Source: Escherichia phage vB_EcoP_LNA3
Sequence record: MZ311862.1
DNA length: 39,586 nucleotides
Direction: 5' to 3' (one strand)
The notes under the pieces are model-generated. The model searched no databases and was not told the origin of the DNA. It worked only from the letters and a program-made list of their open reading frames with translations. This document shows positions 13,678 to 29,645 of the stretch, one piece after another (the first letter of the stretch is position 1; each line of letters starts with the position of its first letter). The position numbers and the translations under genes are program-made.

Positions 13678-13682
13678 GTGTT

Positions 13683-13726
13683 AGACTCAAGGTCATTACT
13701 ATATGTAGTGGCCTTTATGGTTAACA
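13683..13726 (+). ncRNA. conserved hairpin element, candidate RNase III site (T7 R18.5 position)
   Basis: TAGACTCAAGGTCAT-loop-GTGGCCTTTATGGTTAAC; the AAGGTCAT/GTGGCCTT stem recurs at 22245 and 29603 with different loops. Confidence 0.45.
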
Positions 13727-13778
13727 CTAACTAGTGGAGGCGACTCTGCGTGAAATCTGATAAACCGGGAGGGCAACT

Positions 13779-16279: not shown

Positions 16280-16438
16280 ATGGGTAAGACCAAGGCTGTT
16301 CTTAAAGCTCTGGCGACCAATAGAGCTACGTACAGGTTTCTTGCTGCTGTTCTACTTGCTGCTGGCGTTACTGCTGGAAGTCAGTGGGTCTGGTGGGTCG
16401 AGACTCTCGTATGTACTCTGGTGTCTGAGTGTCATTAA
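16280..16438 (+). CDS. small hydrophobic protein (gene 19.5 position)
   Basis: 52-aa ORF (MGKTKAVLKALATNRATYRFLAAVLLAAGVTAGSQWVWWVETLV...) with AGGAGG 6 nt upstream; below the ORF-track cutoff. Confidence 0.45.
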   Translation: MGKTKAVLKALATNRATYRFLAAVLLAAGVTAGSQWVWWVETLVCTLVSECH

Positions 16439-16676
16439 CGCCATCATGGTAACAATCAACGAAAGCAAGACCTAAGGTCAGTTCATAGCTGACGCTACTC
16501 TACTGACCTTAGCTACTGTAGTCAAGGACTTTAGGTAACACCTTAAGAGAAGCTCACTTAGGGTCATCCTACTTATTGGTCTATCCTAGTGTCGCCTGAC
16601 CTACGGTCCTTGACCTACAGTGGCTGTGGCCTACAGTAGTGACGATGAGTTTTGGACCAAAAGTTTGAGACCACAT

Positions 16677-16853
16677 CTCACAGTTCAAGAACCTCAAGTC
16701 TCCCCATAGGCCCTCTTTCAGTCAGACCAAAGGCCCTACCCCAGTCTATCATAAGGCTGGACCGATGGTCAAGACTTCAGGTCAACGATAGGTGGTGACT
16801 ATGGCTTAGGGAAGGACGATAGGTGGTGACTATAGGTCTGTCTTTGAGTCTCT
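16677..16853 (+). repeat. predicted terminal-repeat region; genome left end predicted at about 16677
   Basis: TCTCACAGTT...ACCTCAAGTCTCCCCATAGG parallels the remembered T7 left terminus TCTCACAGTG...ACCTAAAGTTCCCCCATAGG; ...GTCTTTGAGTCTCTATCTGT parallels the end of the T7 repeat. Boundaries approximate (about +/-30 bp). Confidence 0.5.
16785..16833 (+). repeat. 18-bp direct repeat ACGATAGGTGGTGACTAT, two copies
   Basis: Exact copies at 16785..16802 and 16816..16833, 31 bp apart, inside the predicted terminal repeat. Confidence 0.7.
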
Positions 16854-16870
16854 ATCTGTATCAGACCATA

Positions 16871-16950
16871 AGTCACTAACCTACAGTCTCACTAACCTAC
16901 AGTCTCACTAACCTACAGTCTCACTAACCTACAGTCTCACTAACCTACAG
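16871..16950 (+). repeat. tandem array of 16-bp units TCTCACTAACCTACAG (four perfect copies plus one near-copy)
   Basis: Perfect units at 16887, 16903, 16919 and 16935; degenerate CCTACAG-containing units continue to about 16995 and also occur at 16600..16640. Confidence 0.9.
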
Positions 16951-17103
16951 TCTCAACCATAAGACACCAACACCTACAGTCATAGACCTACAGTTACTAG
17001 ACACAAAGCTATAGACTTAAGGTCAAAGACATGTTAGTCAAAGACTATATCCTATTACACCATGGGGCCGACGATAGCTTAATCAATATTATTTCAAATT
17101 ACC

Positions 17104-17132
17104 TATTGACTATAGGTCTAGACTATGGCTTA
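17104..17132 (+). promoter_or_regulatory. host sigma70-type early promoter (T7 A1-like)
   Basis: TTGACT, 17-bp spacer, CTTAAT; the TTGACT-ATAGG context resembles the remembered T7 A1 promoter. Confidence 0.5.
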
Positions 17133-17246
17133 ATAGCTTCCGTCAACACGACACGGCAACAACCGGATAGTGAAGACGCCTGGTCATCCCGGTTAAGTAG
17201 ACAGCCTGATAAGTCATACGAACAACAGGCAGATGACAGAAAGTAG

Positions 17247-17275
17247 TTGACAAGAAGTAAGACTTAAAGTAGTAT
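17247..17275 (+). promoter_or_regulatory. host sigma70-type early promoter (T7 A2/A3-like)
   Basis: TTGACA, 17-bp spacer, TAGTAT. Confidence 0.5.
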
Positions 17276-17429
17276 GTACCACATCAACACGAAACAACGG
17301 TGAAGCCTAACACTGAAACAGGCTAGCACGGCGACGACAGCCAGTGCGAATGCTCTTTAACAATCTGGATAACTCTTAATGTGCGCCGATAGCGACTAAC
17401 TACATGGCCTTTAGTCTACATCTGAAGGC

Positions 17430-17449
17430 CCTGACTGATAGTCACTAAC
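17430..17449 (+). repeat. 20-bp conserved element CCTGACTGATAGTCACTAAC, copy 1
   Basis: Identical copy at 17747..17766; each lies about 15-30 bp upstream of a gene start. Copy 1 follows a GGCCTT/AAGGCC hairpin (17407..17428). Confidence 0.7.
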
Positions 17450-17465
17450 TTAACGGATGGACACT

Positions 17466-17711
17466 ATGAAACACTTAAGCACAATCACTAATCGCAATGA
17501 AGTATTCGTGAACACTAAAGGTTATGCGTGGATTCAGCTTAAAGAGATGAGAGGAGCGCGTCACCGTGTGGTAGTTCGCAAGGTATCAAGCAAGCCGTTC
17601 AGCAACTACAGCGTAGATACTATGCGTATAGACAACGAGACTTACCTGATAGACTCGCAGATAACCGTGCGTCCTACAGCGGGCATCTCAGCTCCTTATT
17701 TCGCTAACTGA
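17466..17711 (+). CDS. hypothetical early protein upstream of the Ocr-like gene
   Basis: 81 aa from ATG 17466 (84 aa from ATG 17457); first ORF after the early promoters; no similarity I recognise. Confidence 0.5.
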   Translation: MKHLSTITNRNEVFVNTKGYAWIQLKEMRGARHRVVVRKVSSKPFSNYSVDTMRIDNETYLIDSQITVRPTAGISAPYFAN

Positions 17712-17746
17712 GAGTGATTAACTACAGGTCGTTAGACTGATAGCGG

Positions 17747-17766
17747 CCTGACTGATAGTCACTAAC
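17747..17766 (+). repeat. 20-bp conserved element CCTGACTGATAGTCACTAAC, copy 2
   Basis: Exact repeat of 17430..17449, just upstream of the Ocr-like gene. Confidence 0.7.
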
Positions 17767-17794
17767 ACATAATTAACTTTGAGAGGATATAACT

Positions 17795-18298
17795 ATGGAA
17801 CGTAATGCTAACGCATACTATGAGCTGCTGGCTGCAACCGTTGAGGCATTTATCGAGCGTATTCAGTACGACCACCTGACTCAAGATGATGACTACAGCG
17901 ATGCGCTGCATGAGGTCGTAGACGGTCAGGTTCCCCACTATTACCACGAGATTTTTACGGTGATGGCTGCTGATGGTATAGACCACGAGTTCGAAGACTC
18001 TGGGATGATGCCTGAAACCAAGGACGTAACGCGTATACTACAAGCTCGCATCTATGAGGCGCTTTATAACGATGTGTCTAATAGCTTGGATGTAGTCTGG
18101 TTTGAGGCTGAAGAGGCAGACGAAGAGGATGAATATTGGGTAGTTGACGCTAAAACAGGCGCAATAATTGTGCAAGCTGTAGCTCTTGAGGTCGCTACTG
18201 CATGTGCCAAGGTCAACTATGCAATAGGTCGCCACCTGAAGGTGGAAGACATCAATGATAACGTAGTGTTCGACCCTGCGGCTGAGGACTGCGAGTGA
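17795..18298 (+). CDS. ocr: Ocr-like anti-restriction protein (gene 0.3 homologue) with C-terminal extension
   Basis: [45 protein letters not shown] matches the T7 Ocr core; 167 aa versus 117 in T7. Confidence 0.8.
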
Positions 18299-18447
18299 TG
18301 GTAACTTATGGTCTCTGCCAGCACCACGTCGCCAACGCCCGGCTTATGGTCAAGACCGGGCGGTTAACCCATGATGAGACTATGCGTATCCTGAAGGTGG
18401 TCTACAAGCGCCGCAAGCGCATACACGACAGTTTGCACGCTGAGTGA
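18298..18447 (+). CDS. small basic hypothetical protein (gene 0.4 position)
   Basis: 49-aa ORF coupled to the Ocr-like gene by a TGATG overlap; below the ORF-track cutoff. Confidence 0.4.
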   Translation: MVTYGLCQHHVANARLMVKTGRLTHDETMRILKVVYKRRKRIHDSLHAE

Positions 18448-18513
18448 TAAACGAGAGGTCACGACTGATAGGTGGCCTCAAAGATTACCACTTACATTGA
18501 TAGGAGAATTACT

Positions 18514-18681
18514 ATGAAATTTACAATCATCGCACTTTACGTAACCATTATTCTATCTTGGCTTACTGCGGTGCTCACTGATGGTAACGCATTACGACTG
18601 GGCTGGCTGGCAGTGGACATTATATTCTCTCCGGTAGGTGTCGTGCGCGGTATCTTGATGTGGATTGGACTGGCAGGATAA
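18514..18681 (+). CDS. small membrane protein (hypothetical)
   Basis: 55 aa with two hydrophobic segments; TAGGAG 5 nt upstream of ATG 18514 (the track's 18472 start lacks a Shine-Dalgarno). Confidence 0.5.
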   Translation: MKFTIIALYVTIILSWLTAVLTDGNALRLGWLAVDIIFSPVGVVRGILMWIGLAG

Positions 18682-18684
18682 ACT

Positions 18685-18882
18685 ATGAGTCTTGCACTAT
18701 TGATAGCCATAGGCTATGGACTTATCGCCTACGTGCTGGTGAGAGACATCAACAAAGCGCGTGAAGTCTACAAATTCAACTATGTACGTCTGGGCCGCTG
18801 GACTGTACGTCAACCTAACGGACAATTCATGCGCAACTTAGCGAACGTCTGGGATATAGCAACTATTGGGAGCAAACTGTAA
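18685..18882 (+). CDS. small membrane protein (hypothetical)
   Basis: 65 aa with N-terminal hydrophobic segment MSLALLIAIGYGLIAYVLV. Confidence 0.5.
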   Translation: MSLALLIAIGYGLIAYVLVRDINKAREVYKFNYVRLGRWTVRQPNGQFMRNLANVWDIATIGSKL

Positions 18883-19142
18883 TGAAAACCGTATACATTA
18901 ACAAACCATCTAGCCATAGCCGTGTAGAGCAAATAGAGCGTGACATGTTCTTACATCGCCGCATGAGGGCTGAGGGCCATAAGTACGAACTGATGAGTCT
19001 GGCGTTTGGTGGACGACCGATCACTGACGATGGTAAACTTTTAGTCTCAGGCTGGAAGGCGATAGACCAACGGTCAACCATCAAGCACACGACTCACGGT
19101 GACTTCAGCCATCTCAACGCTAACCCTCTGATATGCAAGTGA
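18882..19142 (+). CDS. hypothetical early protein
   Basis: 86-aa ORF coupled by a TAATGA overlap to the preceding gene; occupies the slot where T7 has the gene 0.7 kinase. Confidence 0.5.
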   Translation: MKTVYINKPSSHSRVEQIERDMFLHRRMRAEGHKYELMSLAFGGRPITDDGKLLVSGWKAIDQRSTIKHTTHGDFSHLNANPLICK

Positions 19143-19149
19143 TTCTGAC

Positions 19150-19167
19150 TTAACTATCACTATAGGA
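19150..19167 (+). promoter_or_regulatory. phage RNA polymerase promoter directly upstream of the RNA polymerase gene
   Basis: TTAACTATCACTATAGGA about 72 bp before the gene 1 ATG. Confidence 0.7.
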
Positions 19168-19239
19168 CTCAAGGTCTAAGACTCCAAGTGAAAGACCAAA
19201 GAGACTTTAAGTGAAAGACTAATAACAAGGACTTTAAGT

Positions 19240-21921
19240 ATGAGCGTCATCTCTATTGATAAACACGACTTCTCTGATGTGTCGAACGCCATTGAGCCGT
19301 TTAACCTGCTGGCAGACCACTACGGGCAAGACCTTGCAGTCAAACAGCTTCAGCTTGAGCATGAGGCCTACACAGAAGGCGAGCGACGTTTCATCAAGAA
19401 CCTTGAGCGCCAGACCGAGCGCGGGGAACTGGCAGACAATCAGGTCGCCAAGCCTTTGATGCAGACTCTGGTGCCTAAGATTGCGCAAGCAGTCAAGGAG
19501 TGGCACGAAGGCCAAGACGGGAAGCTGTCAACCTCTCGTCCTAGCGTAGCGTTCACCAAGTTGAGCACTGAAGAGAAGGCCGTCAAGGACCGCTCTATGC
19601 GCATCTCCTGTGAGTCCGCTGCGGTTATCATACTGAAGGTCATACTCTCCAAGCTGGTCAAGCCTGAAGGGATACCGATTACACCTATGGCCTCAGCGTT
19701 AGGTCGCACACTTGAGGACGAAATCCGCTTCGGTCGCATCCGTGACAAGGAGAAGGAGCACTTCAAGAAGGCGATAGCTGAGAACCTGAACAAGCGAGCT
19801 GGGGCATCCTACAAGAAAGCCTACATGCAAGCTGTAGAGGCATCCATGCTGGAGCAAGGCCAACTGGAAGATGCGTGGGGGACTTGGAGTCCGACCGAAG
19901 CGGTACACGTTGGCATCAAGATGCTCGAGATTGTCATCCAGTCCACACAACTGGTCGAGCTTAAGCGTTATGGTGCTGGCAATGCGGCGGCTGACGTTGA
20001 GATGGTCCACCTGTCAGACTTCTGGGTAAAGAAGATGGCACAACGTGGATTCAGCCTTGCGGGTATTGCGCCAGTCTATCAGCCTTGCGTCGTTCCACCT
20101 AAACCGTGGACTGGTGTAGTAGGCGGTGGGTACTGGGCCAAAGGTCGCAGACCGTTACCATTGATTCGCTTAGGGTCTAAGTCTGCGGTAGCACGTTATG
20201 AAGACGTGTACATGCCTGAAGTCTATGACGCTGTGAACATCATTCAAAATACACCTTGGAAAGTGAACAAGAAGGTATTGAACGTGGTGAACATGGTCGA
20301 GAAGCTGAACAACACGCCTATTGATGACATCCCTCAGATGGAACCGCTGAAGCCTGAGGACTATGCTGGTGAGACCGAGGAGGAACTCAAGGCATGGAAG
20401 AAGGCTGCTGCTGGTATCTATCGCCGCGAGAAGGCCCGACAGTCACGCAGATTATCACTGAGCTTTATCATCAACCAAGCGAATAAGTTCTCTCAGTTCA
20501 AGGCCATCTGGTTTCCATACAACATGGACTGGCGCGGTCGAGTCTACGCTGTGCCGATGTTCAACCCTCAGGGTAACGACATACAGAAGGGTCTCCTGAC
20601 TCTGGCAGTCGGTAAGCCTATTGGTGCTGACGGTTTCAAATGGCTGAAGGTCCATGGTGCAAACTGCGCGGGTGTTGATAAAGTCACCTTCGAGGAGCGC
20701 ATCAAGTGGGTGGAAGACAACCACGAAAACATCATGGCTGCTGCTAAGGCACCGATGGATAGTATTGAGTGGTGGGGCAAGTTAGACTCTCCGTTCTGCT
20801 TCCTTGCGTTCTGCTTCGAGTATGCTGGTGTAATGCACCACGGATTGTCTTACTCCTGCTCACTGCCGATAGCGTTCGATGGGTCATGCTCTGGTATTCA
20901 GCACTTCAGTGCGATGCTTCGTGACCACATCGGTGGACATGCAGTAAACCTGACGCCATCCGGCATGGTACAAGACATCTACCGCATTGTGTCTGACCGC
21001 ATTGAGGAGGAGCTTAAAGTCCTGCTGATTACCGGTACTGACAACGAGATGGTCACTCACGAGGATAAGAAAACTGGTGAGATTACCGAACGTATCAAGC
21101 TGGGGACACGAGAGCTGGCCCGTCAGTGGTTGACATACGGTATGTCACGCAAGGTCACTAAGCGTTCAGTCATGACTCTGGCATACGGGTCGAAAGAGTA
21201 CGGCTTCGCTGACCAAGTTTACGAGGACATCGTGATGCCAGCGATTGACTCAGGATCTGGCGCTATGTTCACCGAGCCGAGCCAAGCGTCTCGCTTCATG
21301 GCTAAGATGATTTGGGAAGCTGTGAGTGTGACCGTAGTTGCTGCGGTTGACGCGATGAAGTGGCTTCAAGGTGCTGCCAAGCTGCTGGCTGCTGAGGTGA
21401 AGGACAAGAAGACTGGAGAAATCCTGAAGCCTTGCCTTCCGGTACACTGGGTCACTCCTGATGGTTTCCCGGTCTGGCAGGAATACCGCAAGAAGGATAC
21501 CACTCGTCTGAACCTGATGTTCTTAGGGTCATTCAACCTTCAGCCTACCGTCAACAGAGGTACGAAGAAAGAGCTGGACAAACACAAGCAGGAGTCAGGC
21601 ATTAGCCCGAACTTCGTCCACTCACAAGATGGTAGCCACCTCCGCAAGACTGTAGTCCATACTCACCGCAAGTATGGCGTGATGTCGTTCGCAGTGATTC
21701 ACGATAGCTTCGGGACCATCCCGGCTGACGCTGAGTATCTGTTCCGTGGGGTCCGTGAGACTATGGTCGAGACCTACCGCGACAACGATGTGCTGCTTGA
21801 CTTCTACGAGCAGTTTGAATACCAGCTTCACGAGAGCCAGCGCGATAAGTTGCCAGAGCTTCCGAAGAAAGGTAAACTGAATATTGAGGACATCTTGTCT
21901 TCAGACTTTGCATTCGCTTAA
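19240..21921 (+). CDS. T7-like single-subunit DNA-dependent RNA polymerase (gp1)
   Basis: 893 aa, collinear with T7 RNAP (DFSDV...PFN.LADHYG...; C-terminal ...DILSSDFAFA). Specificity loop at 21541..21600 reads QPTVNRGTKKELDKHKQESG. Confidence 0.97.
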   Translation: MSVISIDKHDFSDVSNAIEPFNLLADHYGQDLAVKQLQLEHEAYTEGERRFIKNLERQTERGELADNQVAKPLMQTLVPKIAQAVKEWHEGQDGKLSTSRPSVAFTKLSTEEKAVKDRSMRISCESAAVIILKVILSKLVKPEGIPITPMASALGRTLEDEIRFGRIRDKEKEHFKKAIAENLNKRAGASYKKAYMQAVEASMLEQGQLEDAWGTWSPTEAVHVGIKMLEIVIQSTQLVELKRYGAGNAAADVEMVHLSDFWVKKMAQRGFSLAGIAPVYQPCVVPPKPWTGVVGGGYWAKGRRPLPLIRLGSKSAVARYEDVYMPEVYDAVNIIQNTPWKVNKKVLNVVNMVEKLNNTPIDDIPQMEPLKPEDYAGETEEELKAWKKAAAGIYRREKARQSRRLSLSFIINQANKFSQFKAIWFPYNMDWRGRVYAVPMFNPQGNDIQKGLLTLAVGKPIGADGFKWLKVHGANCAGVDKVTFEERIKWVEDNHENIMAAAKAPMDSIEWWGKLDSPFCFLAFCFEYAGVMHHGLSYSCSLPIAFDGSCSGIQHFSAMLRDHIGGHAVNLTPSGMVQDIYRIVSDRIEEELKVLLITGTDNEMVTHEDKKTGEITERIKLGTRELARQWLTYGMSRKVTKRSVMTLAYGSKEYGFADQVYEDIVMPAIDSGSGAMFTEPSQASRFMAKMIWEAVSVTVVAAVDAMKWLQGAAKLLAAEVKDKKTGEILKPCLPVHWVTPDGFPVWQEYRKKDTTRLNLMFLGSFNLQPTVNRGTKKELDKHKQESGISPNFVHSQDGSHLRKTVVHTHRKYGVMSFAVIHDSFGTIPADAEYLFRGVRETMVETYRDNDVLLDFYEQFEYQLHESQRDKLPELPKKGKLNIEDILSSDFAFA

Positions 21922-22243: not shown

Positions 22244-22244
22244 T

Positions 22245-22288
22245 TAGACTCAAGGTCATGACTCAAAGTCGTGGCCTTCATGATTAAC
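22245..22288 (+). ncRNA. conserved hairpin element, candidate RNase III site (T7 R1.1 position)
   Basis: TAGACTCAAGGTCAT-GACTCAAAGTC-GTGGCCTTCATGATTAAC; same stem as the elements at 13683 and 29603. Confidence 0.45.
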
Positions 22289-22316
22289 CCTAACTCACTC
22301 AATCAGGAGCCACACC

Positions 22317-25115: not shown

Positions 25116-25829
25116 ATGGCTAAAGAGCAACTGAAGACTTTCACCACTCCGGTAGCTGGTATAGTTGAGCCTTACGCATGGCTGAACAAAGCAGACACCA
25201 AGTTTAATGAGCGTGGTGAGCATAAGGTTAACCTGACATTCGACCTGAGCAACCCGAAGGTCCGTAAGATGATTGATGTCTTACAGAAGATTCACGACGA
25301 TGCGTATGCGAAAGCACTCGCAGACCACGAGAAGAACCCACCTCAGGTTCAGCGTGGCAAGAAGCCTATCGAGCCGCGTGAAGGCGACATGCCGTGGATT
25401 GAGAATGGTGACGGCACTGTTACCCTTAAGTTTAAATGCTTTGCGTCTTACCTTAAAGACGGCAAGTCCGAGCCTATCGTATTACGGTTCTACGACACCG
25501 ATGCTAAGTTAATCCGTGACGTCCCGAATATTGGCGCTGGCTCAAAGCTGAAGGTCAAGTTTAAAGTCCTGCCATTCAAGTGGAACGCTGCTACTGGTGC
25601 AAGCGTTAAGCTCCAGCTTGAGTCCTGCCTTCTGGTAGAACTGAAGGAGTGGAAAGGTGATGGTGCTGGTGGCGATGGTGGCTGGGGTGATGATGAAGAC
25701 CTCGGTACTGGTTACAAAGCGTCAACCGATGGTGACTTCGGTGACGATGACTTCGGTGACGATGACTTCGGTGACGATGGTTCCGAAGGTGGTGACGACT
25801 CCAGCTCTGGTGGAGATTACGACTTCTAA
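25116..25829 (+). CDS. single-stranded DNA-binding protein (gp2.5)
   Basis: 237 aa with an acidic C-terminal tail ending in Phe (...GGDYDF), as in T7 gp2.5. Confidence 0.9.
   Translation: MAKEQLKTFTTPVAGIVEPYAWLNKADTKFNERGEHKVNLTFDLSNPKVRKMIDVLQKIHDDAYAKALADHEKNPPQVQRGKKPIEPREGDMPWIENGDGTVTLKFKCFASYLKDGKSEPIVLRFYDTDAKLIRDVPNIGAGSKLKVKFKVLPFKWNAATGASVKLQLESCLLVELKEWKGDGAGGDGGWGDDEDLGTGYKASTDGDFGDDDFGDDDFGDDGSEGGDDSSSGGDYDF
25734..25778 (+). repeat. three in-frame tandem copies of a 15-bp unit (GACTTCGGTGACGAT) within the SSB acidic tail
   Basis: Perfect tandem copies encoding the tripled DFGDD motif in the gp2.5 C-terminal tail. Confidence 0.9.
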
Positions 25830-29434: not shown

Positions 29435-29599
29435 GTGTTTAAGAAACTTAAAGCTCGATACCATCGGTTCATGTACAAATGGTGGAGCGATGAAGCAACC
29501 TGCCTGTCGAACATTCTGGGAGACCAGCGGTTCAACTCTGCGGCATGGAAGAAAGCCAACCGGAAGTTCATGTATCACTTCTTGCGTACAGACTTCTAG
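29435..29599 (+). CDS. hypothetical small protein (gene 4.3/4.5 position)
   Basis: 54 aa from GTG 29435, 8 nt after GGAGGA; the track's 29399 start is also non-ATG with no Shine-Dalgarno. Confidence 0.4.
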   Translation: MFKKLKARYHRFMYKWWSDEATCLSNILGDQRFNSAAWKKANRKFMYHFLRTDF

Positions 29600-29602
29600 G
29601 TC

Positions 29603-29645
29603 TAGACTCAAGGTCATTCATAGCGAGTGGCCTTTATGATTAGAC
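29603..29645 (+). ncRNA. conserved hairpin element, candidate RNase III site (T7 R4.7 position)
   Basis: TAGACTCAAGGTCAT-TCATAGCGA-GTGGCCTTTATGATTAGAC; third copy of the stem. Confidence 0.45.

What the first reader, a model, noticed from the sequence alone, without database searches (positions are those of the whole stretch)
17457..17711. Unrecognised early gene between the host promoters and the Ocr-like gene
T7 has no gene between its A-promoters and gene 0.3. Here an 81-84-aa basic protein is encoded first in the early transcript and is preceded by the same 20-bp element (CCTGACTGATAGTCACTAAC) that precedes the Ocr-like gene. The first protein made after DNA entry is a prime candidate for host takeover or anti-defence.
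Basis: inference. Interest (0 to 1): 0.5.

Follow-up and report, generated by a model that had tools for sequence, protein, structure and literature searches.

The report
K1F gp0.2 early gene cassette
The ORF is a real but already catalogued phage gene of unknown function (the K1F "gp0.2" family) that sits as an optional plug-in cassette in the first-expressed slot of a T7-like phage, and the repeated 20-bp element is half of an RNase III RNA-processing hairpin that marks the cassette borders.

Summary
The window is a circularly permuted Kayfunavirus (K1F-like, T7 family) genome. The ORF and the exact 20-bp repeat (17430-17449 and 17747-17766) are both real. The gene is not unrecognised: it is K1F gp0.2 (phrog_10124), and an identical protein is already in GenBank as "hypothetical protein". 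The true start is ATG 17466, giving 81 aa with pI 10.1.

It is protein-coding. Copies in unrelated phage backbones have saturated synonymous sites while dN is only 0.21-0.29. There is no Pfam, NCBIfam, PADLOC or PDB match. An AF2 model (pLDDT 79.5) is a small all-beta protein with no fold match except uncharacterised phage proteins.

The 20-mer is the 3' arm of a hairpin homologous to the T3/T7 R0.3 RNase III sites. The hairpins delimit a 317-bp cassette that is cleanly absent in relatives such as PE3-1 and placed in a different order in Vec13 and PM137. The same 20-mer precedes at least 8 different ORF families, including Ocr and SAM lyase.

Homologues occur in five groups of virulent enterobacterial phages, and in Autographiviridae usually as the first early gene. 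None was found in E. coli genomes or plasmids.

The most likely role is an accessory host-directed protein, probably counter-defence. This is unproven.

The parts
17247..17275 (+). Sigma-70 early promoter (TTGACA-17-TAGTAT), the counterpart of T7 promoter A3
   Evidence: Promoter scan gives 10 of 12 matches. The sequence from -35 through 'gtaccacat' is collinear with T7 A3 at nt 715-750.
17352..17368 (+). rrn/T7-type boxA-like sequence GCTCTTTAACAATCTGG in the early leader
   Evidence: Identical 17-mer in T7 at about nt 813-829 and in all eight Kayfunavirus loci examined.
17393..17449 (+). RNase III-type hairpin A, the leader site. Its 3' arm is copy 1 of the 20-bp element (17430-17449).
   Evidence: RNA fold of -27.9 kcal/mol, z = -4.5, with lower stem, internal loop and upper stem. 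It aligns with the T3 'RNase III recognition site R0.3' and the T7 R0.3 region.
17455..17461 (+). Shine-Dalgarno-like GGATGGA for the start codon at 17466
   Evidence: Read from the sequence. K1F has AAGGATGGA at the same place.
17466..17711 (+). gp0.2-family CDS (81 aa plus stop), phrog_10124
   Evidence: It is 93.8% identical to K1F gp0.2 and 100% identical to GenBank proteins of PM137 and others. It is under purifying selection.
17713..17766 (+). RNase III-type hairpin B, which starts directly after the stop codon. Its 3' arm is copy 2 of the 20-bp element (17747-17766). It serves as the R0.3-equivalent site for the Ocr-like gene.
   Evidence: RNA fold of -24.7 kcal/mol, z = -3.0. The 57-nt hairpin is present in 113 phage records and aligns with T3/T7 RNase III sites, with compensatory pairs.
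17450..17766 (+). The 317-bp gp0.2 cassette (SD + ORF + hairpin B), bounded by the two identical 20-mers
   Evidence: The copy-to-copy spacing is 317 bp in K1F, Pipis, PM137, Vec13, vB_EcoP_F and ST31. The cassette is absent between a single copy and ocr in PE3-1. Megablast homology breaks at the element ends.
17795..18298 (+). Ocr-like gene 0.3 (167 aa), the next cassette
   Evidence: phrog_2568 'ocr-like anti-restriction', E = 1.7e-53.
18446..18492 (+). Third RNase III-type hairpin, between gp0.35 and gp0.36
   Evidence: Aligns with T3 R0.5 and R1 and contains the partial repeat GACTGATAG (D5).

Best explanation
The ORF is the K1F gp0.2-family gene (phrog_10124). It is a real, horizontally mobile, accessory immediate-early gene.

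Shown by sequence analysis: it forms a 317-bp cassette made of an SD, an 81-codon ORF and a hairpin. The cassette is inserted behind the leader of the host-RNA-polymerase early operon, which consists of an A3-type promoter, boxA and a first hairpin. Both borders of the cassette are the same 20-24 nt, and these nucleotides are the 3' arm of T3/T7-type RNase III recognition hairpins.

Inferred from established T7 biology: E. coli RNA polymerase transcribes the cassette first as the genome enters the cell. RNase III then cuts in the internal loop of each hairpin. This releases a roughly 0.3-kb monocistronic gp0.2 mRNA with a protective 3' hairpin and an exposed ribosome-binding site. Translation starts at ATG 17466.

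The repeated hairpins also provide short homology patches. Through them, first-slot cassettes are gained, lost and reordered among related phages. The cassettes seen are gp0.2, Ocr, SAM lyase and at least five unknown ORFs.

Inferred for the protein: the product is a small basic all-beta protein with a conserved RKVxSKxFSNxSVDTVRIxNxxYLIDSQ core and, in many members, a flexible APYF tail. It most likely binds and neutralises a host factor at the very start of infection. Counter-defence is the favoured reading, because the two characterised genes that occupy the same slot are both anti-restriction proteins.
For: The gene is real.
- HMM match to phrog_10124 at E = 1.1e-38 over the full length.
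- 118 phage records carry it.
- Between Kayfunavirus and Phapecoctavirus copies, synonymous sites are saturated while dN is 0.21-0.29.
- The family also occurs in Przondovirus, Ermolevavirus (phiKT), Gamaleyavirus (N4-like) and SP6-like contigs.

The position is conserved.
- It is the first gene after the leader in K1F-like phages and in Przondovirus K10PH82C1, which has the same promoter-boxA-hairpin-gene-hairpin layout.
- It is the first or second ORF after the non-coding left end in three distant Autographiviridae contigs, next to Kil-like and S-AdoMet-lyase genes.

The element is an RNase III hairpin.
- The folds have z = -4.5 and z = -3.0.
- The hairpins align with T3's annotated R0.3, R0.5 and R1 sites and with the T7 R0.3 region.
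- 9 of 14 consensus pairs show compensatory changes.

The gene behaves as a cassette.
- PE3-1 has one copy of the element and no gp0.2.
- PM137 has three exact copies plus one near copy.
- An extra 349-bp cassette lies before gp0.2 in Vec13 and after it in PM137.
- The identical 20-mer precedes at least 8 ORF families, including Ocr and S-AdoMet lyase.

The gene is accessory and confined to virulent phages.
- About 70 records carry a copy at >=80% aa identity, against about 173 records with RNAP at >=90% nt identity.
- No copy was found in 5,426 complete E. coli genomes or in PLSDB plasmids.
Against: - Guilt by position is weak. Five other occupants of the slot are also of unknown function, and T7 early genes include takeover factors unrelated to defence.
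- The protein is basic, unlike DNA-mimic anti-restriction proteins.
- RNase III cleavage and the use of the hairpins as recombination sites are inferred from homology and breakpoints. They were not observed.
- The structural model is of only moderate confidence (pLDDT 79.5, pTM 0.62).
Confidence: 0.55

Rival explanations
1. gp0.2 is a host-physiology takeover factor and not a counter-defence protein. It would be a small inhibitor of an essential host machine such as cell division, cytoskeleton, transcription or replication, comparable in role to T7 gp0.4, T7 gp0.6 or lambda Kil.
For: It lies in the same early operon class that in T7 holds gp0.4, gp0.6 and gp0.7. In SP6-like contigs it lies a few genes from a Lambda_Kil-family gene. 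It is small, non-enzymatic-looking and conserved in phages of several enterobacterial genera, which implies a conserved host target.
Against: It is present in only about 40% of close relatives, and it swaps with anti-restriction genes in the same slot. No similarity to any known takeover protein was found.
Confidence: 0.22
2. gp0.2 is a nucleic-acid-binding protein that acts on the phage's own DNA or RNA. It might shield the entering DNA end, or modulate early transcript processing or antitermination.
For: The basic character is conserved across the family: median pI 9.5, and 74 of 80 members have pI above 8. It is made first, when only the leading genome end is in the cell. It sits next to boxA and the RNase III hairpins.
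Against: Homologues sit in N4-like and rV5-like (Phapecoctavirus) phages, which have a different leader and a different entry and transcription strategy. Net charge is modest, at +2 to +6. No known nucleic-acid-binding fold was detected. The gene is dispensable in many close relatives that keep the same leader and hairpins.
Confidence: 0.12
3. The 20-bp element is a promoter, terminator or other signal and not part of an RNase III site.
For: One GenBank record labels the hairpin 'terminator' (H183). The element contains TCACTAA, which is faintly reminiscent of T3-type promoters.
Against: This genome's phage-polymerase promoter consensus is CTAAACTATCACTATAGG, which is a different sequence. No intrinsic terminator with a T-run was found in the region. 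The element aligns base for base with the 3' half of T3's annotated RNase III site R0.3 and with the T7 R0.3 region.
Confidence: 0.05
4. The ORF is a chance open frame with no product.
For: It is short, has no database domain, and the DQ111067 annotation of K1F omits it.
Against: The amino-acid sequence is conserved across unrelated phage backbones while synonymous sites are saturated. 26 alignment columns are invariant among 20 homologues. The start, stop and SD are conserved. The AF2 model gains confidence with alignment depth, from pLDDT 62.6 to 79.5.
Confidence: 0.02

Closest known systems
Escherichia phage K1F gp0.2 (CAJ29341.1) / PHROG phrog_10124, 'unknown function'
   Same: 93.8% amino-acid identity, the same length (81 aa), the same position between the A3-type promoter/leader hairpin and the ocr-like gene 0.3, and the same flanking 20-mers.
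   Different: Nothing substantive. The window protein is an allele, and GenBank phages PM137, 101120B2 and 22664UKE3-2 carry a 100% identical protein. No function has been assigned to any member.
T7 / T3 RNase III processing sites, especially R0.3 (T3 stem_loop 822-875; T7 about nt 840-905)
   Same: The same location, after boxA and immediately upstream of the first early gene. The same architecture of lower stem, internal loop and upper stem. The 3' arm GGCCUGACUGAUAGUCACUAAC corresponds to T3 GGCCUUUAUGAUAUUCACUUAAC and T7 GCCCUUUAUGAUAUUCACUAAUAAC.
   Different: Here the site is duplicated, with one copy on each side of an extra gene. Cleavage has not been demonstrated for this phage.
T7 Ocr (gp0.3) and T3 SAM lyase: first-expressed anti-restriction genes of T7-group phages
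   Same: They occupy the same slot behind the same RNase III hairpin. The identical 20-mer precedes ocr-like genes and an S-AdoMet lyase gene in relatives. They are expressed first on genome entry, which is established T7 biology.
   Different: There is no sequence or fold similarity. gp0.2 is basic (pI 10.1), not an acidic DNA mimic, and has no lyase domain. In the window it sits ahead of Ocr and does not replace it.
T4-type phage PeSL (promoter-early stem-loop) mobile regulatory cassettes, and lambdoid 'morons'
   Same: Small accessory ORFs flanked by repeated regulatory stem-loop sequences. Presence, absence and order differ among close relatives, and breakpoints lie at the repeats. The comparison with PeSLs rests on my own knowledge of Arbiol et al. 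2010, which was not retrieved here.
   Different: The repeated unit here is an RNA-processing hairpin inside one operon. It is not a promoter plus stem-loop or a promoter-terminator pair. No autonomous transcription signals belong to the cassette.

Membership tests
K1F gp0.2 family (phrog_10124) | Full-length significant match to the family profile | tested here: met
   E = 1.1e-38, residues 4-84 against profile positions 1-77 of 77.
K1F gp0.2 family (phrog_10124) | High identity and synteny with the founding member | tested here: met
   93.8% identity to K1F CDS 785-1030, between the leader and gene 0.3.
T7-group RNase III processing site | Irregular hairpin of about 50-60 nt: lower stem, internal loop, upper stem | tested here: met
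   Folds. The consensus structure is shared with T3 and T7 sites, and 9 of 14 pairs show compensatory change.
T7-group RNase III processing site | Sequence homology to mapped or annotated sites, and an intercistronic position in the early operon | tested here: met
   Alignment with T3 R0.3, R0.5 and R1 (annotated stem_loops) and the T7 R0.3 region. The hairpins lie between cistrons.
T7-group RNase III processing site | Cleavage by E. coli RNase III | not testable with these tools
   Requires in vitro cleavage or rnc+/rnc- end mapping.
Phage counter-defence (anti-restriction-class) protein | Early expression, accessory distribution and horizontal mobility | tested here: met
   First cistron. 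Present in about 40% of close relatives. Shared by five phage groups.
Phage counter-defence (anti-restriction-class) protein | Demonstrated inhibition of a defence system | not testable with these tools
   No experimental data were found.
Ocr-type DNA mimic | Strongly acidic protein that mimics B-DNA | tested here: not met
   pI 10.08 and net charge +6. The family median pI is 9.5. No match to Ocr profiles.
Bacterial SH3_5 (SH3b) domain | Significant profile or fold match to SH3_5 | tested here: not met
PeSL-type mobile regulatory cassette | Cassettes bounded by repeated regulatory stem-loops, with shuffling among relatives | tested here: met
PeSL-type mobile regulatory cassette | The repeat carries an early promoter | tested here: not met
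   No promoter consensus lies in the hairpin, and the phage promoter consensus differs. This is an analogy only.

The most novel reading that the evidence does not exclude
The gp0.2 family is a new counter-defence (or immediate-early takeover) protein with a previously unseen small beta fold. Selection would keep it in the very first expressed slot of many Autographiviridae because it must act before, or together with, Ocr or SAM lyase while only the leading kilobase of DNA is inside the cell. The RNase III hairpins would double as recombination junctions of an exchangeable 'first-gene' cassette array.
Probability: 0.35. Interest if true: 0.6.

Novelty: already known. Interest (0 to 1): 0.3.

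Why it matters
The gene itself is catalogued, so the finding adds no new entity. The analysis does turn a bare "hypothetical protein" into a well-defined experimental target.

- It is an orphan-fold family under purifying selection and restricted to virulent phages.
- It has moved between at least five groups of enterobacterial phages.
- In Autographiviridae it repeatedly occupies the first-expressed position, interchangeably with two classical anti-restriction genes.

If it neutralises a defence system or a host factor, it would matter for understanding the earliest minute of T7-like infection. It would also matter for the host range of therapeutic K1-capsule and Klebsiella phages.

The hairpin-bounded cassette layout also gives a simple rule for finding further candidate early effectors: look downstream of the conserved 20-mer.

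Tried and rejected
- **Domain and sequence searches.** Pfam, NCBIfam, PADLOC and PDB-sequence searches, with the single protein and with a 43-sequence profile, found nothing.
- **SH3_5 lead.** It came from a 1,147-aa amidase with five SH3_5 repeats. The hit is a repeat-inflated match to a single beta-hairpin and disappears with the broader profile.
- **Fusion partner.** The 189-aa homologue P0050 has only a sub-threshold DUF7447 hit.
- **Literature.** There were no phage hits for 'gp0.2', CAJ29341 or K1F plus gp0.2. A transcriptome search returned irrelevant papers. In the accessory-gene screen of Silas et al., orf24 shares an accessory region with ocr. It is a different protein, starting MFKHEIYTDCNK. 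The gp0.2 peptide strings are absent from the supplements of both papers.
- **Rfam.** Only sub-threshold chance hits were found in 16400-19400.
- **Neighbouring genes.** Neighbours in other phage groups are all of unknown function.
- **Profile-based locus search.** The search with A3 failed for lack of a conserved stretch. The search with A1 gave only 8 IMG/VR loci.
- **Promoter alternatives for the 20-mer.** A phage-promoter reading was rejected. The sigma-70-like match at 17458-17485 is within the chance expectation.

Full report
**Identity of the window.** Region 17200-17800 matches 226 phage records. The best is Escherichia phage PhiNW-B1 at 99.7%, and K1F matches at 91.9%. The window is therefore a circularly permuted Kayfunavirus (K1F-like, Studiervirinae) genome. 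Its physical left end and early region lie at about 16.5-19.2 kb, and the gene for the phage RNA polymerase starts at 19240.

**The observation.**
- The ORF 17457-17711 exists.
- The 20-mer CCTGACTGATAGTCACTAAC occurs exactly twice, at 17430-17449 and 17747-17766. No further match appears with up to 3 mismatches, and 0.01 matches are expected by chance.
- The protein is basic, with pI 10.08 and net charge +6.
- T7 and T3 have no annotated gene between promoter A3 and gene 0.3.
- One correction is needed. Every homologue, including those behind unrelated upstream sequences, starts MK(H/K)LS at the second ATG. ATG 17457 lies inside the purine-rich GGATGGA that serves as the ribosome-binding site. 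The CDS is therefore 17466-17711, 81 aa.

**The gene is not unrecognised.**
- The K1F record AM084414 annotates the orthologue as gp0.2 (CDS 785-1030).
- The protein belongs to phrog_10124, 'unknown function' (E = 1.1e-38).
- The exact 81- and 84-aa sequences are in NCBI as 'hypothetical protein', for example QZI78588.1.
- The phiKT and EC1-UPM records even cite 'gp0.2' in their notes.

**It is a real gene.**
- tblastn finds the family in 118 phage records.
- Among 20 homologues, 26 alignment columns are invariant.
- Between Kayfunavirus copies and the copies in roughly 150-kb Phapecoctavirus genomes, synonymous sites are saturated while dN is only 0.21-0.29. Within Kayfunavirus the few differences give dN/dS of 0.2-0.7.
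- A full HMM scan of 1.84 billion representative proteins finds only 17 clusters at E <= 1e-3. Nearly all are 65-91 aa. The family is therefore small and compact.

**What the protein looks like.**
- There is no hit in Pfam, NCBIfam, PADLOC or PDB sequences, using either the single sequence or a 43-sequence profile.
- AF2 with 20 sequences gave pLDDT 62.6. With 43 diverse sequences it gave pLDDT 79.5 and pTM 0.62. The model has six beta strands, and the last ten or so residues are disordered.
- In many members that disordered tail carries a conserved APYF motif.
- An apparent link to SH3_5 domains is an artefact. It sums five weak matches to a single beta-hairpin in a repeat protein, and it vanishes with the broader profile.
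- The conserved core is L4-S5 ... R38-K-V-x-S42-K-x-F45-S-N-x-S49-V-D-T-V-R-I ... Y60-L-I-D63-S-Q.
- The family is predominantly basic, with median pI 9.5. It is therefore not an Ocr-like DNA mimic.

**What the 20-bp element is.** Each copy is the 3' arm of a hairpin with a lower stem, an internal loop and an upper stem.
- Hairpin A (17393-17449) folds at -27.9 kcal/mol with z = -4.5.
- Hairpin B (17713-17766) folds at -24.7 kcal/mol with z = -3.0.
- The leader is collinear with T7. It has a TTGACA-17-TAGTAT promoter equivalent to A3, the 17-mer boxA-like GCTCTTTAACAATCTGG that is identical to T7, and then the hairpin.
- T7's R0.3 region ends ...GCCCUUUAUGAUAUUCACUAAUAAC, against GGCCCUGACUGAUAGUCACUAAC here.
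- The T3 record annotates 'RNase III recognition site' R0.3, R0.5 and R1. The two window hairpins and a third at 18446-18492 align with them.
- RNAalifold recovers one shared structure, and 9 of 14 pairs keep pairing through double changes.
- The phage-polymerase promoter consensus of this genome is CTAAACTATCACTATAGG, which is different. No intrinsic terminator is present.

The element is therefore half of an RNase III processing site. From established T7 biology (Dunn and Studier; my own knowledge), cleavage in the internal loop separates the early cistrons. It leaves the hairpin at the 3' end of the upstream RNA.

**Cassette anatomy.** Megablast homology to relatives breaks at query positions 250-259 and 568, which are the ends of the two 20-mers. 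The arrangements in the relatives examined are as follows.

| Phage | Arrangement behind the leader |
|---|---|
| PE3-1 | leader - hairpin A - one 20-mer - ocr; no gp0.2 |
| K1F, Pipis, vB_EcoP_F | two copies exactly 317 bp apart, as in the window |
| ST31 | two copies exactly 317 bp apart; gp0.2 followed by the 174-aa gene in place of ocr |
| PM137 | three exact copies plus one near copy, before gp0.2, a 92-aa ORF, ocr and a further gene |
| Vec13 | the same 349-bp 92-aa cassette, but before gp0.2 and not after it |
| YZ1 | a 174-aa gene follows the 20-mer in place of ocr |

- The complete 57-nt hairpin B terminates both the gp0.2 cassette and the 92-aa cassette. It is found in 113 phage records, including Yersinia, Citrobacter, Enterobacter and Klebsiella phages.
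- Across the window, GenBank loci and 16 IMG/VR stretches, the identical 20-mer is followed within 7-32 nt by at least eight unrelated ORF families. They are gp0.2, Ocr-like, phrog_9817, phrog_11084, phrog_336, phrog_20418, a 51-aa orphan and an S-AdoMet lyase.
- The S-AdoMet lyase matches PF23780 at E = 6.9e-40.
- The two occupants with known function, Ocr and SAM lyase, are both anti-restriction proteins.
- I infer that the repeated hairpins act as homology patches for gain, loss and reordering of first-slot cassettes. The breakpoints support this, but recombination itself was not observed.

**Distribution and position.**
- About 70 records carry a copy at >=80% aa identity, whereas about 173 have RNAP DNA at >=90% identity. 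The gene is accessory, present in roughly 40% of close relatives.
- In Przondovirus K10PH82C1 the homologue is again the first gene. It lies behind an A3-like promoter, boxA and a hairpin whose 3' arm is CCATACTGATAATCACTAAT, and another RNase III-type hairpin follows it.
- In three distant Autographiviridae contigs it is the first or second ORF after the 1-1.4 kb non-coding left end. It lies upstream of the RNAP and near Lambda_Kil-like and S-AdoMet-lyase genes.
- In N4-like Gamaleyavirus it lies among the early genes, between the RNAP1 subunits.
- In Phapecoctavirus it lies in a block of small unknown genes.
- No copy was found in 5,426 complete E. coli genomes or in 72,556 plasmids. In these collections it is a gene of virulent phages only.

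**Is it really the first cistron?** The upstream 'gp0.1' ORF (17031-17246) spans the region where T7 has promoters A1 and A2, and it contains a TTGACT-17-CTTAAT promoter-like site at 17105-17133. The ORF stops after 21 codons in PE3-1 and after 17 in PM137. It is frameshifted into a different sequence in YZ1. It is therefore unlikely to be a gene, and gp0.2 is the first conserved cistron.

**Function.** Nothing here tests function, and no publication addresses it. The accessory-gene screen of Silas et al. reports orf24 in an accessory region with ocr. That protein starts MFKHEIYTDCNK and is unrelated.

My committed reading is an accessory, host-directed immediate-early protein that works by binding a host factor.
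- Counter-defence is favoured, at about 0.45, because of the slot it shares with Ocr and SAM lyase, its cassette mobility and its restriction to virulent phages.
- General host takeover comes second, at about 0.2.
- A nucleic-acid-binding role on the phage's own DNA or RNA comes third, at about 0.1.

**Verdict.** It is wrong on novelty, because the gene is catalogued. The 20-mer is now explained as an RNase III half-site that marks cassette borders. Interest is modest. The gene is a good, well-delimited experimental target but not a new kind of system.

Noticed in passing
window 17296-17368: The early leader carries a boxA-like GCTCTTTAACAATCTGG (17352-17368) identical to T7. Two hairpins precede it, at 17304-17324 and 17326-17347. 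Their stems change in a compensatory way among Kayfunaviruses: AGCCU/AGGCU versus GACC/GGUC versus UCCC/GGGA. This resembles an rrn-type boxB-boxA antitermination leader.
   Followed up: partly
window 17031-17246: The ORF annotated as gp0.1 in K1F (phrog_30192) overlaps the A1/A2-type promoter region. It is truncated in PE3-1 and PM137 and frameshifted in YZ1, so it is probably not a gene.
   Followed up: yes
window 16873-16955: Five perfect tandem copies of a 16-bp unit (TCACTAACCTACAGTC) lie in the non-coding left-end region. Degenerate ACCTACAGT motifs flank them at 16599-16641 and 16972-16994.
   Followed up: no
window 17795-18298: The Ocr-like protein is 167 aa here and 169 aa in K1F, but only 110-114 aa in PE3-1, Vec13, vB_EcoP_F and others. 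A C-terminal extension of about 55 aa (after the acidic EEADEEDE run) is therefore variably present. The PHROG match covers only residues 1-142.
   Followed up: no
window 19120-19166: A copy of the phage-polymerase promoter consensus (CTTAACTATCACTATAGG) sits directly upstream of gene 1 (RNAP, start 19240). T7 has no phage promoter in front of gene 1, so this could allow autoregulated RNAP expression.
   Followed up: no
window 13681-13732, 22244-22295, 29597-29642: Three further hairpins of the T3/T7 RNase III type (TTAGACTCAAGGTCAT...GTGGCCTTTATGATTAAC) lie elsewhere in the genome. The one at 22244 is immediately downstream of a phage promoter.
   Followed up: no
L002 (Pipis) about 300-480, L006 (Vec13) and L008 (ST31): Relatives carry insertions of 150-170 bp in the early promoter region. 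One lies between the A2-like and A3-like promoters in Pipis and Vec13. In ST31 an extra TTGACA...TAAGCT promoter copy lies downstream of A3. The promoter array itself is therefore modular.
   Followed up: no
window 25728-25787: There are 15-bp tandem repeats (GACGATGACTTCGGT) that would encode a repeated acidic DDDFG motif if they are in frame in a coding region.
   Followed up: no
OP272493.1 (Enterobacter phage 04_vB_Eclo_IJM) 825-1066: The gp0.2 homologue matches in two pieces over 242 nt instead of 243. This suggests a 1-nt frameshift, either a pseudogene or a sequencing error. Several metagenomic homologues are N-terminally shortened to 63-70 aa.
   Followed up: no
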